From the IMG/VR virus record IMGVR_UViG_3300017818_000007, positions 64,001-128,000 of that record: a stretch of 64,000 nucleotides of DNA, one strand, 5' to 3'. The notes below the pieces were generated by a model. The model ran no database searches. It saw only the letters and a list, made by a program, of their open reading frames with translations, and had not been told where the DNA came from. Origin of the DNA: a virus. Shown here in pieces: positions 27,287-41,144 of the stretch; within the stretch, counting starts at the first letter, position 1; each line of letters begins with the position of its first letter. The position numbers and the translations under genes were made by a program.

Positions 27287-27733
27287 TTATGCGTTAGTAA
27301 AATCGTCGTCATCAACACCAGCCGCGTCATCGTCACCAGCCTCTTCAACTTGTGCCGCGCCATCTACTAGTGATGTGCTAAAGTTCCATGGCACTGACTT
27401 ACCATCATATGCGTTAGAACCTGTACCGTCTGGAGCAACTAGTGTTGCTTTACGACCTGAAATTTTAGAAACTTGATAAGTTTCAGAATCGTCCATTTTA
27501 AACGTGATACCCATTTCACCAGCCGCTAGTGCTGACATTAGTTTACCAGTTGTTAATGTACAAGTGTATTCAGTGTCTGAAGCACCAATTTCTGCTACTA
27601 CAAACTTTTTGCTACCTTTTTGTTTTACAATATGTCCTTCAACTACACTAGTGCCGTTGTGAAAATCAACTTTGATTTCATTTCCGCCCGCAGTAGGTTC
27701 GCCGAAGTATCTTTTATTAAGTGGTCTACCCAT
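27287..27733 (-). CDS. Conserved hypothetical (probable virion/capsid-associated) protein
   Basis: 148 aa, MGRPLNKRYFG start; strong AAGGAG RBS, own TAAATA promoter and own terminator, suggesting high late expression. Confidence 0.7.
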   Translation of the reverse strand: MGRPLNKRYFGEPTAGGNEIKVDFHNGTSVVEGHIVKQKGSKKFVVAEIGASDTEYTCTLTTGKLMSALAAGEMGITFKMDDSETYQVSKISGRKATLVAPDGTGSNAYDGKSVPWNFSTSLVDGAAQVEEAGDDDAAGVDDDDFTNA

Positions 27734-27753
27734 TTGTTTTCTCCTTTTTAGAA

Positions 27754-27831
27754 GTCCGATCCGGGTTCTATCCGGTACGCAGTGGGTTTAATACTGCATA
27801 AGTCCATTACTTCAAATGGAACATATCTGAC
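27754..27831 (-). promoter_or_regulatory. Structured 5' leader (four-way junction) of 27287..27733
   Basis: P1 GUCAGAU/AUCGGAC encloses hairpins UCCAUU/AAUGGA, UAUGCAGU/ACUGCGUA and CCGG/CCGG; begins right after the TAAATA promoter and ends before the RBS. Confidence 0.55.
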
Positions 27832-37105: not shown

Positions 37106-37960
37106 GTGTCAGAACTTTTAAAATCGTACAGTAGACAACCAAAGATCTACCTTAGATTGCCCAGCGGTGGTCAGTTCTATGCTAATAATCCTACTGAAAA
37201 AACAGGTACAGGCGAATTGCCAGTGCTTAGTATGACAGCAAAGGATGAATTAATTCTACGCACACCAGATGCACTTATGAACGGTGAAAGCGTACACGCC
37301 TGCATTAAAAATTGTATACCACTAATTGATGATCCATGGGAAATTCCATTAATTGATCTAGATGCAATCCTAATTGCGATTAGAATCGCAACCTATGGTG
37401 AAAAAATGAAAATGACTGTTCCAGTGCCAAGAGTGGAAAACGAAGATCTAGAAATTGAAGTTGACCTAGTAAGTATGTTGGACAGTTTTAATGGCAAAGT
37501 ATGGGAACCTATTGTAAAATACGGTGAACTAACACTACACACAGCACCATTAAAGTTTCAAGATCAAAACATTTACGAACAGCAAAACTACGAAACACAG
37601 AAGTTTATTTCTCTAATGCGTGATAATGATAGACCTTTAGCAGAACGTAAAGGCCAAATGACACAGTTATTTGAAAGCATTAGTGATATGAACGTTGATA
37701 TTATTGCAAAACAAATCAAAGCAATCGAAACACCAGACGGTGAGTTTGAATACAATGCTGTTGCTATTAAAGAGTTTTTAAATTCTCTAGCAGTAAAAGA
37801 GTTTGATATTATTAGAGATCAAATGCAACAAAGAAGAGAGTTATTTGATCTTCCACCACAAAAAGTAGTAGTTCCACAAAACCTAATCGAGGAAGGAGCG
37901 CCAAAAGACTTTGAAGTCCCAATGGTGTTCAATCAAGCAAGTTTTTTCGCATTGAAGTAA
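37106..37960 (+). CDS. gp26: Tail assembly chaperone / baseplate hub protein, T4 gp26-like
   Basis: GTG start with GGAGA RBS; RQPKIYLRLPSGG, MTAKDELILRTPDALMNG, DLDAILIAIRIATYGE; ends NQASFFALK. Confidence 0.8.
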   Translation: MSELLKSYSRQPKIYLRLPSGGQFYANNPTEKTGTGELPVLSMTAKDELILRTPDALMNGESVHACIKNCIPLIDDPWEIPLIDLDAILIAIRIATYGEKMKMTVPVPRVENEDLEIEVDLVSMLDSFNGKVWEPIVKYGELTLHTAPLKFQDQNIYEQQNYETQKFISLMRDNDRPLAERKGQMTQLFESISDMNVDIIAKQIKAIETPDGEFEYNAVAIKEFLNSLAVKEFDIIRDQMQQRRELFDLPPQKVVVPQNLIEEGAPKDFEVPMVFNQASFFALK

Positions 37961-38181
37961 AACAATGTCAATCGCCTGACCAAATTACCCAATTAATCAA
38001 ACGTTATGATGATGAGTACAGCACACTAGAAAAAGATCTAGTCGATGTATGTTGGTATATGCGTGGAAGCGTTTCCATTACAGAAGCATACAATCTTACT
38101 CCTGTACAAAGAAAATTCATATTCGAATTAATCAAGAATAACGCAGAAATGTCTAAGAAAACTGGTAATCCTATATACTAG
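37942..38181 (+). CDS. gp51-like extension in the -1 frame of gp26 (predicted programmed -1 frameshift product)
   Basis: Hand translation of the -1 frame from the T TTT TTC run (37942-37948): FFRIEVKQCQSPDQITQLIKRYDDEYSTLEKDLVDVCWYMRGSVSITEAYNLTPVQRKFIFELIKNNAEMSKKTGNPIY*. First in-frame ATG is only at 38059; this frame is closed upstream by TGA at 37912. Confidence 0.7.
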   Translation, partial: FFRIEVKQCQSPDQITQLIKRYDDEYSTLEKDLVDVCWYMRGSVSITEAYNLTPVQRKFIFELIKNNAEMSKKTGNPIY

Positions 38182-38182
38182 T

Positions 38183-38686
38183 AGATGAACTGCGTTCATC
38201 TGTGTTATCGCTATCGCTCAAACACATTTATTTCTTTTATATATGAAAGATAATTGCGAAGCAATTTAGCATCATGTAGATTGTTTCAGTCAGACGGAAC
38301 CTGTTTACGGTTCCATCTAATCTTGAACATCATGTGAGTTCGTCACAGCCAAGACTTGGAAGTAGGTTGTTTTGTTTATACACCTGTTTGTAGGGCTCTG
38401 ACCTTTCCCCTACCTACGTCGACATCACGTAAAAATCTGCTTTAACCGCTTTGCTATCGCAAACCGCTTCGCGGATTCTCCGCTACCTCCCGCTTCGTTC
38501 CGGTGCGTGGAGTTTTTTCAAACACAGTGTTTTCGACTGACAGCATTCAATCTACATCAACCAGTGAGCCCAATTCTTTTGCTGGCTTCCTCCCATGGGG
38601 GGTCGATCAATGTGTACGAGTGTCCTTTTCAAGGGTACCTTTTACTCAGCGGTATTTGCAAACTGGCCCGCCAACCTTATGTGCTG
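38183..38686 (-). ncRNA. Candidate ~500-nt structured non-coding element (RNA or ssDNA), family unassigned
   Basis: Largest intergenic gap in the window, locally GC-rich; many hairpins and a long-range duplex (38548-38557 with 38274-38283; 38535-38540 with 38286-38291); the hairpin at 38292-38318 needs a G-U pair that only forms on the minus strand. Confidence 0.65.
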
Positions 38687-39118
38687 TTATATTGCCTTTA
38701 AATTTTCTAGTGCTTCTTTTAGAATTTTTGAACCGCCAACTCTTACATTAATAATTCCGTTATAATACTCATCTGTTTCTAATACACGACGGTCAAACTG
38801 TTCTTTAGCCTCAAGATAACTCATCAAGCCTCTGCTATTACAAATATAAAGTATTTCTCTTGTGAAGTTTTCAGGTCCTAGTTTTTCTACATCAGCCTTA
38901 AGATGGTCATTTGAGCCCCAATATTCTCGCCAATCAGATTCCTTTGTGCCTCTGCGTTTATTCTTTTTGCCCTTAAGAGGTGGCTTTGTTGTTTTAAATT
39001 TTGCTAGTTTTTTGCCTACGTATTTGCGGTTGTTGGTGGTGTTTGTTATCAGATAGACAAAGCCTTCGCAATCTTGCGGAAGTTCTTTAACTATTTTGCC
39101 CTGATAAGTCCACTCCAT
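38687..39118 (-). CDS. Stand-alone GIY-YIG family endonuclease (catalytic domain only)
   Basis: 143 aa; GFVYLITNTTNNRKYVGKK (GIY-YIG variant), DWREYWGS, YLEAKEQF (Glu), YYNGII (Asn). Confidence 0.8.
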   Translation of the reverse strand: MEWTYQGKIVKELPQDCEGFVYLITNTTNNRKYVGKKLAKFKTTKPPLKGKKNKRRGTKESDWREYWGSNDHLKADVEKLGPENFTREILYICNSRGLMSYLEAKEQFDRRVLETDEYYNGIINVRVGGSKILKEALENLKAI

Positions 39119-39123
39119 GTAGA

Positions 39124-39145
39124 TACTTACCTGCGCCTGTATTTA
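39124..39145 (-). promoter_or_regulatory. Late-type promoter cores upstream of the GIY-YIG gene (TAAATA 39140-39145; TAAGTA 39124-39129, 5 nt before ATG)
   Basis: Read directly from the sequence; suggests an independent nuclease plus downstream-element transcript. Confidence 0.45.
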
Positions 39146-39370
39146 CCTGGTCTCGGATTTGACTGCCTTGTTATGCTGTTTTTCTTCTTTGAGTTCTTTT
39201 CGCCTGTCTTGTACTTCTGCTCGCCTTTGTGTGCATAGCCTTCTAATGTCGCTTAGTATAGAACGAACCTTGCGTCCGTTTTCATCAAAGCCTTTTGCTT
39301 CAAAACGCTCGTTCATATTGTAGTAGTCCATGACTGCTTGTACCAATAGTTCGTGCGTTGTTTTAGCCAT
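39143..39370 (-). CDS. Small basic helical protein, possibly Hc1 (histone H1-like) family
   Basis: 75 aa; NERFEAKGFDENGRKVRSILSDIRRLCTQRRAEVQ resembles the Hc1-like F..KG.K.A..R.RK.L..I.....R.E pattern. Confidence 0.5.
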   Translation of the reverse strand: MAKTTHELLVQAVMDYYNMNERFEAKGFDENGRKVRSILSDIRRLCTQRRAEVQDRRKELKEEKQHNKAVKSETR

Positions 39371-41144
39371 TTACAACCTCTGTGTCTGTTTCATAACTTG
39401 TGAAGCCGTTTTCTTTTATAACTTTTAATATAGTGTTAACACGAGAACTTAGTTCGTCTTTATGTGAAATCAAATAGATGTTTTTATGACGTTCACGTGC
39501 CATTTTCTTAAGAATACCAATTGAACTTTCAACACCAGCACTGTCCATACCACTATCAATAAGTTCGTCAATAAACAGCAAATTAATGCTTTGATATAGG
39601 CTTTCCCAAACATCACGGAACGCCCAACTCATTGATAAGATGAGTCTATTTCGTTCACCTCTACTGAGGTTATCAAAGTCTAAGTCACGTCCTAGTTCTG
39701 TAATTTCTACCGTTAAATCGTTTAAAAACTTAACTTGATGTGGTAAACCAGTCTTATCAAGATAGTATTTTAATCGTTGATTTAACACAGTAAGGTTTTG
39801 ATCAATAATACGTTTACGTATAAATGAATCTTTACTTGTAAGCAACTTGTACAAGAAATCCATATGTGCTTTCATGTTTTGTAGATCATTCATGTGATCC
39901 CAACTGACTTCTTTTATTGCTGTATTTGTTAGTTCATCCATTTGTTCTGTGTATGGATTAACTTCTGTATCTTTTTCTTTTTTACGTTCTTCTAGTGTTG
40001 TGAGATTGTTTCTATGATTATATGCTTCTTCTGCACTGTCATAAAACGTTTTAGGCTTACTGCTAAGTTCGCCAATATCCGTAATCTTTTTAACAACATC
40101 ATCTAGTTGTAGTTGTACACCATCAAGATACTGTTTGCTTTCTTTTACATCGTTTTCTTTTTCTGCAAGTAAATCTGCATGAGTATCGTCGTGTAAATCT
40201 TGTCCGCAAGTAAAACATTTTTTACTGCCAATATCTTCTAGTTCTTTTTGATATTTTTTAGTTTCACGTTCAGCACGTAAGATACTTGCTTCTAAACTTG
40301 CTTTTTCTTTTTGAAGATTAGTAAGTTCAGTGTTTTTAGTATCCCACTCTGCTAAATCGTTGTGTGCTTGAATTTCAGCCTCAATATCAACTTGAACTAG
40401 TTGCATAATTGCTTTACTCAAACGAGAAATTTCTTCTGCCTGAGAAGCGTCCCAAGCCTTGCTTTTTAATTCAAGGGCATTAATAGATTCTTGTACAGCC
40501 TTGTTAGCACTTTCAATTCCTTTAATACGAGCATCTTCTTCAGTAATACTATCACGGACTTCTTTTTGTTGCTCCTTGAGGTTTTCTGCTTTCTCTGACA
40601 GAATGGTGATACCTAACAACTGTTCAATAATTTCGCGTTGTGCGTTATTACTGAGAGATAGGAAAGGCTCTGTATATGTGTTAAGTGCCACCAAGTGTTT
40701 GAACATACCGTGACTCATGTCCAAAAGACGTTCTATTTCTTGCTGTGTTTTGCGTGAATCGCCTTGCGACTCGTCAATATCATCAGCAGTTGCATCAACA
40801 TCTTCAACGTAAAACTTTAATACATTCTTTTTACGTCCACGTTCAATTCTATATGTTTTACCACCTTTTTCAAACTCAACTGTGACAAGCATATCCTTGC
40901 CGTTAGTTTTGTTAATAAGGTTTTCTTTTCTAATTTTTGTTAATGCTTCGCCATACAATGCATAACTTAACGCATTAATAATTGTTGTTTTACCTGTACC
41001 GTTTCTAGAACCTGCGTCATCGCCGCCTAGGTCCATATTTTCACCTAGCACAAGGGTTAGTAAATTTTTATCAAAATCTACTGCTTGTGTAGCATTACCT
41101 ACACTCATAAAGTTTTTAACTGTAAGTGTTTTAATTTTAAACAT
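39363..41144 (-). CDS. gp46: Recombination endonuclease ATPase subunit, gp46/SbcC/Rad50-like
   Basis: Walker A RNGTGKTT, coiled coil with zinc hook CFTCG, signature LSRGE, Walker B LFIDELIDSGMD. Confidence 0.95.
   Translation of the reverse strand: MFKIKTLTVKNFMSVGNATQAVDFDKNLLTLVLGENMDLGGDDAGSRNGTGKTTIINALSYALYGEALTKIRKENLINKTNGKDMLVTVEFEKGGKTYRIERGRKKNVLKFYVEDVDATADDIDESQGDSRKTQQEIERLLDMSHGMFKHLVALNTYTEPFLSLSNNAQREIIEQLLGITILSEKAENLKEQQKEVRDSITEEDARIKGIESANKAVQESINALELKSKAWDASQAEEISRLSKAIMQLVQVDIEAEIQAHNDLAEWDTKNTELTNLQKEKASLEASILRAERETKKYQKELEDIGSKKCFTCGQDLHDDTHADLLAEKENDVKESKQYLDGVQLQLDDVVKKITDIGELSSKPKTFYDSAEEAYNHRNNLTTLEERKKEKDTEVNPYTEQMDELTNTAIKEVSWDHMNDLQNMKAHMDFLYKLLTSKDSFIRKRIIDQNLTVLNQRLKYYLDKTGLPHQVKFLNDLTVEITELGRDLDFDNLSRGERNRLILSMSWAFRDVWESLYQSINLLFIDELIDSGMDSAGVESSIGILKKMARERHKNIYLISHKDELSSRVNTILKVIKENGFTSYETDTEVVNG

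What the first reader, a model, noticed from the sequence alone, without database searches (positions are those of the whole stretch)
38183..39145. Stand-alone GIY-YIG nuclease followed immediately by a ~500-nt ornate structured element: candidate nuclease-RNA system
Seen: in a genome packed with 0-100 nt gaps, 504 nt of non-coding sequence starts at the stop codon of a 143-aa GIY-YIG protein on the same strand. It is locally above 50% GC (39/70 at 38451-38520) against an AT-rich background. The minus strand folds extensively: a long-range helix AUGUAGAUUG/CAAUCUACAU (38548-38557 with 38274-38283) stacked on UCAGUC/GACUGA closes a ~270-nt domain. That domain contains CAGU/ACUG, CCGC-GAA-GCGG, UUUGC-GAUA-GCAAA, a nested GUAGGU/ACCUAC plus UAGGG/CCCUA arm, and a 10-bp AGAUGGAACC/GGUUCCGUCU hairpin whose G-U pair works only on this strand. 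Several more hairpins follow at the 3' end. Established: homing GIY-YIG enzymes such as I-TevI and Seg proteins carry a separate C-terminal DNA-binding region, which is absent here; large phage ncRNAs (GOLLD, ROOL) and nuclease-associated RNAs (HEARO/omegaRNA) exist. Inference: nuclease and RNA are co-transcribed from the upstream TAAATA/TAAGTA and the RNA may act as scaffold, guide or regulator. The short GIY-YIG is common in T4-like phages, so the linkage could be positional only.
Basis: partly seen in the sequence, partly recalled or inferred. Interest (0 to 1): 0.85.

Follow-up and report, generated by a model that had tools for sequence, protein, structure and literature searches.

The report
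Twin-box phage RNA beside nuclease gene
The gene-free stretch after a small nuclease gene of this uncultured marine T4-like phage encodes a real, large, knotted non-coding RNA shared by hundreds of related phages; nothing shows that it guides the nuclease, and its job is unknown.

Summary
The 505-nt gap (38182-38686, minus strand) is real and non-coding. It holds a structured RNA conserved in over 200 IMG/VR loci. A hand-curated fold of 75 pairs in 14 helices, with two pseudoknots, is 95% paired. It has 41 pairs with changes on both sides, and no shuffle reached it (0/500). G-U outnumbers A-C twelve-fold, which fixes the minus strand. A covarying local hairpin, whose loop pairs with the RNA's first five bases, replaces it. 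Two 7-nt boxes (38329-38335 and 38271-38277) are identical in 104 of 106 relatives across 10 variants, and no complementary partner was found. No Rfam family matches here. In a sister clade the equivalent 5' third is Rfam's orphan Polynucleobacter-1 motif (83-119 bits), followed by the same twin-box module. The RNA always follows the GIY-YIG gene (107/107 and 109/109 RNA-first retrievals), but synteny with gp46 explains this. The nuclease occurs without the RNA: in phage Melnitz at 78% identity, and in about 16% of loci. It also does not co-vary with the boxes. So this is a neighbour, probably co-transcribed, and not a shown guide. Earlier follow-ups in this scan found the same family on other DNA.

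The parts
38687..39118 (-). GIY-YIG catalytic-domain-only protein, 143 aa
   Evidence: Pfam PF19835 SegE_GIY-YIG at 120.6 bits. Y22, Y33 and N120 are invariant and E88 is kept in at least 90% of the 23-sequence alignment; a 223-sequence set shows the same blocks. AF2 model pLDDT 86, with weak Foldseek matches to the I-TevI catalytic domain.
38687..38699 (-). Conserved AGGCAA lead-in just upstream of RNA position 1, overlapping the last codons and stop of the nuclease gene
   Evidence: Kept in nearly all full-length relatives. It is also kept where extra DNA lies between the nuclease gene and the RNA (L069).
38554..38686 (-). 5' domain (RNA 1-133): hairpin 15-19/35-39, helix 40-42/67-69 enclosing hairpin 49-65, and long helix 74-82/125-133 enclosing two variable hairpins
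   Evidence: Double changes in helices 2-5. Absent in the 'short' form (35 of 137 hits). Replaced by RF01718 in a sister clade.
38535..38552 (-). Hairpin 135-139/148-152, whose loop 142-146 pairs with RNA 1-5 (pseudoknot; window 38682-38686 with 38541-38545)
   Evidence: Hairpin 98.8% paired, with all 5 pairs changed on both sides. Pseudoknot 100% paired: G3-C144 in 28 sequences against A-U in 55.
38358..38530 (-). Pseudoknotted core (RNA 157-329). Its elements are long-range helix 157-168/297-307; hairpin 175-200 with invariant loop GGAACGA; hypervariable hairpin 204-260; GUAGGU 270-275 with ACCUAC 320-325; and GGG/CCC hairpin 277-295 with invariant 11-nt loop AAAGGUCAGAG
   Evidence: Helices 7-11. 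270-275/320-325 crosses 157-168/297-307, is invariant, and is 100% paired.
38329..38338 (-). Box 1: CUC then ACAUGAU (RNA 349-358)
   Evidence: Its 7-mer equals that of box 2 in 104 of 106 relatives.
38294..38316 (-). Hairpin AUGGAACC/GGUUCCGU between the boxes (RNA 371-393)
   Evidence: 8 pairs, 99.1% paired. Replaced by other hairpins in other subtypes.
38287..38295 (-). Invariant GUCUGACUG (RNA 392-400), complementary over 6-7 bases to the AAAGGUCAGAG loop (38396-38406)
   Evidence: The exact complement is present in 95 of 103 loci of this subtype. In the 106-sequence alignment the variants seen at the loop's C287 and at U399 are wobble-compatible (C287U faces G396; U399C faces G284; read). 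Both sides are nearly invariant, so this pairing is inferred and not shown.
38271..38280 (-). Box 2: UCU then ACAUGAU (RNA 407-416)
38251..38266 (-). UUCG-capped hairpin after box 2 (RNA 421-436)
   Evidence: All 6 pairs changed on both sides (helix 13).
38205..38222 (-). Conserved UUGAGCG-AU-AGCGA-UAAC motif with a tandem AGCGA
   Evidence: Kept even in loci where the rest of this subtype's core is not detected.
38183..38200 (-). Terminal hairpin abutting the stop of the convergent + strand ORF
   Evidence: 6 pairs, 100% paired, 3 with double changes (helix 14). No U tract follows it on the minus strand.

Best explanation
This is the marine architectural variant of a large, modular phage non-coding RNA family, the 'twin-box RNA'. 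The RNA is probably made as the 3' end of the gp47-gp46-GIY-YIG transcript. It folds on its own into three parts:
- an exchangeable 5' domain;
- a multiply pseudoknotted core with invariant loops;
- a 3' module that presents two identical single-stranded 7-nt boxes, about 58 nt apart, each after a fixed flank (AACUC or AAUCU).

I take it to act as RNA in trans. In this view the scaffold displays the two boxes to one common external reader, which is more likely a nucleic acid than a protein. The GIY-YIG gene is then its conserved neighbour and not its effector.

Shown: the structure, the strand, the family, the lock-step boxes and the one-way linkage. Inferred: co-transcription, action in trans and the external reader.
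For: - Conservation: found directly after the nuclease gene in 49 of 80 protein-retrieved loci.
- Structure: 95.0% of cells paired against 85.1% in shuffles; 41 pairs with double changes; covariation score 0.230 against 0.111 (0 of 500 shuffles) and against 0.04-0.05 when partners are slid.
- Strand: G-U 8.7% against A-C 0.7%.
- Boxes: identical in 104 of 106 relatives, with 10 variants; shuffled mean 47, maximum 62. The edges are sharp: the three bases before each box always differ, and bases after it are uncorrelated. The same change arose in unrelated lineages.
- No internal partner for the boxes, and none in the flanks.
- Modularity: a twin-box signature lies downstream of the nuclease gene in 167 of 206 unique loci. 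These carry at least three kinds of 5' domain or core.
- RNA-first retrieval of the RF01718-type 5' domain gives a twin box within 520 nt in 105 of 107 loci.
- Independence from the nuclease.
Against:
- No reader of the boxes was found.
- The RNA has never been seen without the nuclease gene upstream (107/107, 109/109 and 2/2), which leaves room for a functional tie.
- 45 of 96 relatives carry a conserved gene of unknown function right after the RNA on the same strand, so a cis role in those loci is possible.
Confidence: 0.6

Rival explanations
1. Nuclease-RNA system. The RNA binds the domain-only GIY-YIG protein and supplies the nucleic-acid recognition that the missing DNA-binding domain would give, with the variable 7-nt boxes acting as guide-like elements.
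For: - The protein has only the catalytic domain plus a basic hairpin insertion.
- The RNA always lies downstream of this gene on the same strand, in two architectural clades and down to about 50-59% protein identity.
- The boxes are the only short, variable, apparently single-stranded segments set in fixed flanks.
Against: - The nuclease gene occurs without the RNA: in Melnitz's complete genome and in 33 of 206 loci.
- No protein column tracks the frequent box variants.
- Seven bases is very short for a guide.
- 8 RF01718-type loci have about 0.7-1.1 kb between the nuclease gene and the RNA.
- Conserved gp46 synteny explains the adjacency.
Confidence: 0.12
2. Cis-acting element. Either a 3' UTR that stabilises or terminates the early transcript and insulates it from the convergent baseplate genes, or a 5' leader controlling the gene of unknown function that follows the RNA in about half of the relatives.
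For: - It sits at a convergent junction and ends in a hairpin that abuts the opposing ORF.
- 45 of 96 relatives have one homologous 170-250-aa gene after the RNA on the same strand.
- The exchangeable 5' domains with a constant 3' module recall an aptamer-plus-platform layout.
Against: - The RNA is fully kept here and in about half of the loci that lack that gene.
- About 400 nt of pseudoknotted structure with invariant loops is far more than a terminator or stabiliser needs.
- No U-tract terminator was found on the minus strand.
Confidence: 0.15
3. Element that works through DNA as well as RNA. The two boxes are read as direct DNA repeats, or box-1 RNA pairs with the template strand at box 2. 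This would form an R-loop or primer device, such as an origin transcript, beside the recombination genes.
For: - Identity of two direct repeats with no third partner is what a two-party interaction through the element's own DNA would need.
- Seven bases is close to the length of the RNA:DNA hybrid in a transcription bubble (general knowledge).
- The locus adjoins gp46/gp47.
Against: - Purely inferential.
- No deleted or multiplied inter-box units were seen in 181 loci.
- The strong RNA covariation shows that the RNA fold itself is selected.
Confidence: 0.06
4. Remnant or variant of a known catalytic or housekeeping RNA: a group I intron carrying its GIY-YIG homing gene, a tmRNA, or a small self-cleaving ribozyme.
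For: - GIY-YIG genes often sit in phage group I introns (general knowledge).
- Related phages carry a two-piece tmRNA (PMC9004378).
- CUGA and GAAA strings occur before box 2.
Against: - No Rfam hit at E up to 10, even on 186-901-nt slices.
- ARAGORN finds no tmRNA in the window or in the 181-kb record.
- There are no flanking exons.
- The helix order differs from group I P3-P7: here a hairpin sits between the two crossing strands.
- The hammerhead core order is not met.
Confidence: 0.03

Closest known systems
Polynucleobacter-1 RNA motif (Rfam RF01718; Weinberg et al. 2010, PMC2864571)
   Same: - In a sister clade (nuclease 52-60% identical to this one) the RNA directly after the orthologous GIY-YIG gene scores 83-119 bits against RF01718 in 13 of 20 loci.
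- Those RNAs carry the same 3' twin-box module as this window.
- The first hairpin of this window's 5' domain resembles RF01718's: GGYUAGC, a stem, then a loop starting GCCAR.
   Different: - No RF01718 hit in this window at E up to 10, nor in 23 close relatives.
- RF01718 covers only 141 nt and does not include the core or the boxes.
- Its function is unknown. It is listed as Burkholderiales and fresh water/estuary, whereas here it is clearly a phage RNA.
GOLLD, ROOL and other large ornate RNAs often carried by phages
   Same: Several hundred nucleotides, many helices and pseudoknots, phage-borne, function unknown.
   Different: No Rfam match. The architecture differs, and those RNAs have no twin boxes.
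HEARO/omega RNAs of IscB and TnpB (OMEGA systems)
   Same: A structured RNA encoded next to, and co-oriented with, a small nuclease gene.
   Different: - The nuclease family differs (GIY-YIG, not RuvC/HNH).
- There is no long variable guide.
- The nuclease occurs without the RNA.
- No protein-RNA co-variation was found.
nutL/nutR boxB sites of lambdoid phages
   Same: Two copies of one short RNA element in one phage that differ between phages yet stay alike within a phage, because one reader binds both (general knowledge).
   Different: Here the copies are 7-nt single-stranded boxes 58 nt apart inside one folded RNA. No reader is known.

Membership tests
Rfam RF01718 Polynucleobacter-1 | Covariance-model score at or above the gathering score of 37 bits | tested here: not met
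   No hit at E up to 10 in window 38000-38900 or 38525-38710, or in the whole 181-kb record. None in 23 relatives. Positive control: 13 of 20 sister-clade loci score 83-119 bits.
Rfam RF01718 Polynucleobacter-1 | Homology shown through shared context and a shared downstream module | tested here: met
   Same position after the orthologous GIY-YIG gene. The same twin-box module follows RF01718-type 5' domains in 105 of 107 loci.
GIY-YIG nuclease superfamily | GIY and YIG motifs with conserved catalytic Glu and Asn on the GIY-YIG fold | tested here: met
   PF19835 at 120.6 bits. Y22, Y33 and N120 invariant and E88 kept in at least 90%. Best fold matches are the I-TevI catalytic domain, but weakly (E 0.13-0.16). 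Activity is not testable here.
Homing endonucleases of the I-TevI/Seg type | A separate C-terminal DNA-binding region, and patchy, mobile distribution | tested here: not met
   The Pfam match to the catalytic domain covers residues 3-123 of the 143 aa. The gene is near-universal in this clade and more conserved (75-89% aa) than gp46 (45-87%) in the same loci.
RNA-guided nuclease systems (OMEGA-like) | The nuclease is always accompanied by its RNA, the RNA carries a variable guide, and protein and RNA co-vary | tested here: not met
   The nuclease occurs without the RNA in Melnitz and in 33 of 206 loci. The only variable single-stranded segments are 7 nt long. No co-varying protein column was found.
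Group I intron | RF00028 match, P3-P7 pseudoknot order, flanking exons | tested here: not met
   No Rfam hit. A hairpin lies between the crossing strands. The region is flanked by a stop codon and a convergent gene.
tmRNA (one-piece or two-piece) | tRNA-like domain plus a tag reading frame | tested here: not met
   ARAGORN finds none in the window or the record, but finds Melnitz's tmRNA as a control. No Rfam tmRNA hit.
GOLLD / ROOL / HEARO | Rfam covariance-model match | tested here: not met

The most novel reading that the evidence does not exclude
The two lock-step 7-nt boxes are programmable recognition elements. The folded RNA would present them to an external nucleic acid and recruit a nuclease, either the neighbouring GIY-YIG or another. 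That would be a new kind of RNA-directed system in T4-like phages. Alternatively, box-1 RNA re-pairs with the DNA template at box 2, making a self-templated R-loop or priming device beside gp46/gp47.
Probability: 0.08. Interest if true: 0.9.

Novelty: new variant of a known kind. Interest (0 to 1): 0.6.

Why it matters
- This is one of the largest and most widespread unassigned RNAs of aquatic T4-like phages. Each of two 120-row searches hit its limit.
- It shows that an orphan Rfam motif from 2010 is only the 5' third of a much bigger phage RNA.
- It carries an unusual evolutionary signature: two direct 7-nt boxes that change together with no complementary partner. Ordinary RNA base pairing does not explain this.
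- That signature gives a sharp, testable handle on function. Single-box against double-box mutants are the obvious test.
- For annotation, it warns against reading 'small nuclease plus adjacent RNA' as an RNA-guided system on adjacency alone.

Tried and rejected
- A third copy of the box at the nuclease start codon (UAUCUACAUGG): present only in this window, not in relatives.
- TAGGC/AGGCA as a general promoter motif: not enriched in the window.
- An internal partner for the boxes: mutual information, group-specific columns and a direct complementarity scan all found none.
- A cis partner in the flanking kilobases: none.
- A trans partner in the 181-kb record: CATCATGT occurs 0 times in minus-strand sense. 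The six plus-strand-sense sites outside the RNA were not informative.
- A covarying pairing between the core loop and the UNUGAC segment across subtypes: the exact complement is found only in this subtype.
- Considered by eye and rejected: a target-site duplication of a mini-element (the left end is variable, and copies would then drift apart); a box C/D-like K-turn (variants lose the GA); pairing with a tRNA anticodon loop (position 37 does not fit); gene-60-type ribosome hopping (no reading frame).
- blastn of the element against 50,697 phage records: no match.
- PDB sequence search with the protein: none.
It was redone correctly.
- MAFFT misaligns the window's own clade by 1-2 columns in two helices, so 68 of the 75 curated pairs read as formed in the window row.

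Full report
**Context**

The window is part of a 181,867-bp IMG/VR record of a T4-like phage. On the minus strand lie a gp47-like phosphoesterase and a gp46-like Rad50 ATPase (39363-41144). After them come a 75-aa ORF, a 143-aa GIY-YIG protein (38687-39118) and then 505 nt without a credible ORF (38182-38686). Facing them on the plus strand are a baseplate-hub gene and a 40-aa ORF that ends at 38181. The closest cultured relatives of the nuclease are the Methylophilales phage Melnitz isolates (Kyanoviridae), at 78% identity.

**The observation**

The gap, its raised GC (39/70 at 38451-38520; 44.6% against 36.6% for the window) and an above-chance fold (z -3.2) are as described. Rfam gives nothing in the gap at the gathering threshold. 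It also gives nothing at E up to 10 on 901-nt and 186-nt slices. ARAGORN finds no tRNA or tmRNA.

**Is it conserved?**

A protein-based search with the nuclease returned more than 599 loci, of which 80 were kept. The gap sequence recurs directly after the stop codon in 49 of those 80.

From these I aligned 106 distinct RNAs. A hand-curated structure has 75 pairs in 14 helices, including two pseudoknots. Measured against controls:

| Measure | Observed | Control |
|---|---|---|
| Cells paired | 95.0% | 85.1% in shuffles |
| Pairs with changes on both sides | 41 | 30.7 in shuffles |
| Covariation score | 0.230 | 0.111 in shuffles (0 of 500 reach it); 0.04-0.05 with partners slid |

G-U pairs make up 8.7% of cells against 0.7% for A-C, so the RNA is read from the minus strand.

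The long-range closing helix does not. All 16 of its pairs form in this sequence, but across relatives pairing is no better than shuffled columns and nothing covaries. Its 5' bases belong to two covarying structures instead: helix 74-82/125-133 and hairpin 135-139/148-152. The loop of that hairpin pairs with the first five bases of the RNA (G3-C144 in 28 sequences, A-U in 55).

A second crossing pair of helices, 157-168/297-307 and 270-275/320-325, knots the core. Two further loop contacts are complementary but invariant, so they are only inferred: AAAGGUCAGAG with UCUGACU, and GGAA with UUCC.

**The twin boxes**

ACAUGAU occurs twice, after CUC at 38329-38338 and after UCU at 38271-38280. In 104 of 106 relatives the two 7-mers are identical, although 10 variants exist. 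Shuffling gives 47 on average and at most 62. The three bases before each box always differ, and the bases after it are uncorrelated.

The same change arose in lineages only 65-74% identical in RNA. No column of the RNA is complementary to the boxes, and none tracks their changes. No partner lies in the flanking kilobases.

Most variants read a sense codon followed by UGA or UAA (read by eye from the variants). There is no conserved reading frame.

**Relation to Rfam**

Earlier follow-ups in this scan named Polynucleobacter-1 (RF01718) as the nearest family, and I tested that. It does not match this window or 23 close relatives.

I then searched with a more distant nuclease (L135, 58% identical to the window's). 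That reached a second clade in which 13 of 20 loci score 83-119 bits against RF01718 directly after the nuclease stop codon. These RNAs share the twin-box module with ours. Retrieval by the RF01718-type motif alone gave these counts:

- 109 loci had enough upstream sequence, and all have the nuclease gene upstream on the same strand.
- In 101 of them the gap to the motif is 49-113 nt; in the other 8 it is about 0.7-1.1 kb.
- 105 of 107 have a twin box within 520 nt downstream.

The only two hits in 185,579 prokaryotic genomes are short MAG contigs, each with the nuclease gene directly upstream. So RF01718 is the 5' third of one branch of a bigger phage RNA family, and this window is another branch with a diverged 5' domain. 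A 'short' branch lacks this 5' domain altogether. The held literature mentions RF01718 only in the 2010 list. I found no description of the full RNA.

**Is it a nuclease-RNA system?**

For:
- The RNA is never seen without the gene upstream (107/107, 109/109 and 2/2).
- Nothing like a promoter or terminator separates them on the minus strand.
- A conserved AGGCAA lead-in overlaps the stop codon.

Against:
- gp46 lies upstream in both clades, so the order is inherited.
- Melnitz keeps the nuclease, in a different place, and three profile HMMs find no RNA in its complete genome.
- 33 of 206 unique loci lack any twin box, including all 7 unique loci with the nuclease gene inverted relative to gp46.
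- No amino-acid column follows the frequent box variants.

The protein itself looks like an intact GIY-YIG catalytic domain with a basic beta-hairpin insertion.

**Verdict**

This is a real, large, doubly knotted non-coding RNA of unknown function. It is the nuclease gene's conserved neighbour and probably shares its transcript, but nothing shows that it guides the nuclease. The lock-step boxes are the most striking unexplained feature. Expression could not be checked.

Noticed in passing
window 27731-27820 (-): Rfam freshwater-2 RNA (RF02980) at 75.4 bits, against a gathering score of 49.9. It is the only Rfam hit in the window.
   Followed up: no
window 39119-39140 (-) and the same place in relatives: A strongly conserved GGTAAGTA lies 5-6 nt before the nuclease start codon in most relatives, often preceded by TAGGC. 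It could be a ribosome-binding site or a late-promoter-like box giving a near-leaderless mRNA.
   Followed up: partly
relatives, e.g. L017:3202-3762, L034:3881-4447, L069:4207-4725: In 45 of 96 relatives one homologous gene of 170-250 aa follows the RNA on the same strand. It has no Pfam or PHROG family and is absent from this phage's 181-kb record.
   Followed up: partly
window 38687-39118 against 39363-41144: The small nuclease is more conserved between phages (75-89% aa) than the neighbouring gp46 (45-87%) in the same loci. That is unusual for a selfish homing gene.
   Followed up: partly
window 38205-38222 (-): A tandem AGCGA motif (UUGAGCG-AU-AGCGA) is kept even in loci where the rest of this subtype's core is not detected. 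It may be a separate signal at the convergent junction.
   Followed up: no
Melnitz MZ577097.1 45984-46436 (L285): Melnitz carries a 453-nt permuted tmRNA and no twin-box RNA. This phage's 181-kb record has the twin-box RNA and no detectable tRNA or tmRNA, but it is only about 50% complete.
   Followed up: partly
window 37900-38181 (+): Earlier first-stage notes propose a -1 frameshift joining the gp26-like hub gene to the 40-aa ORF region. I saw only that the 40-aa ORF is conserved after the hub gene in relatives.
   Followed up: no
loci L301, L327, L334, L347, L351, L356, L359, L398: In 8 RF01718-type loci about 0.7-1.1 kb lies between the nuclease gene and the RNA. The content of the insert was not examined.
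   Followed up: no
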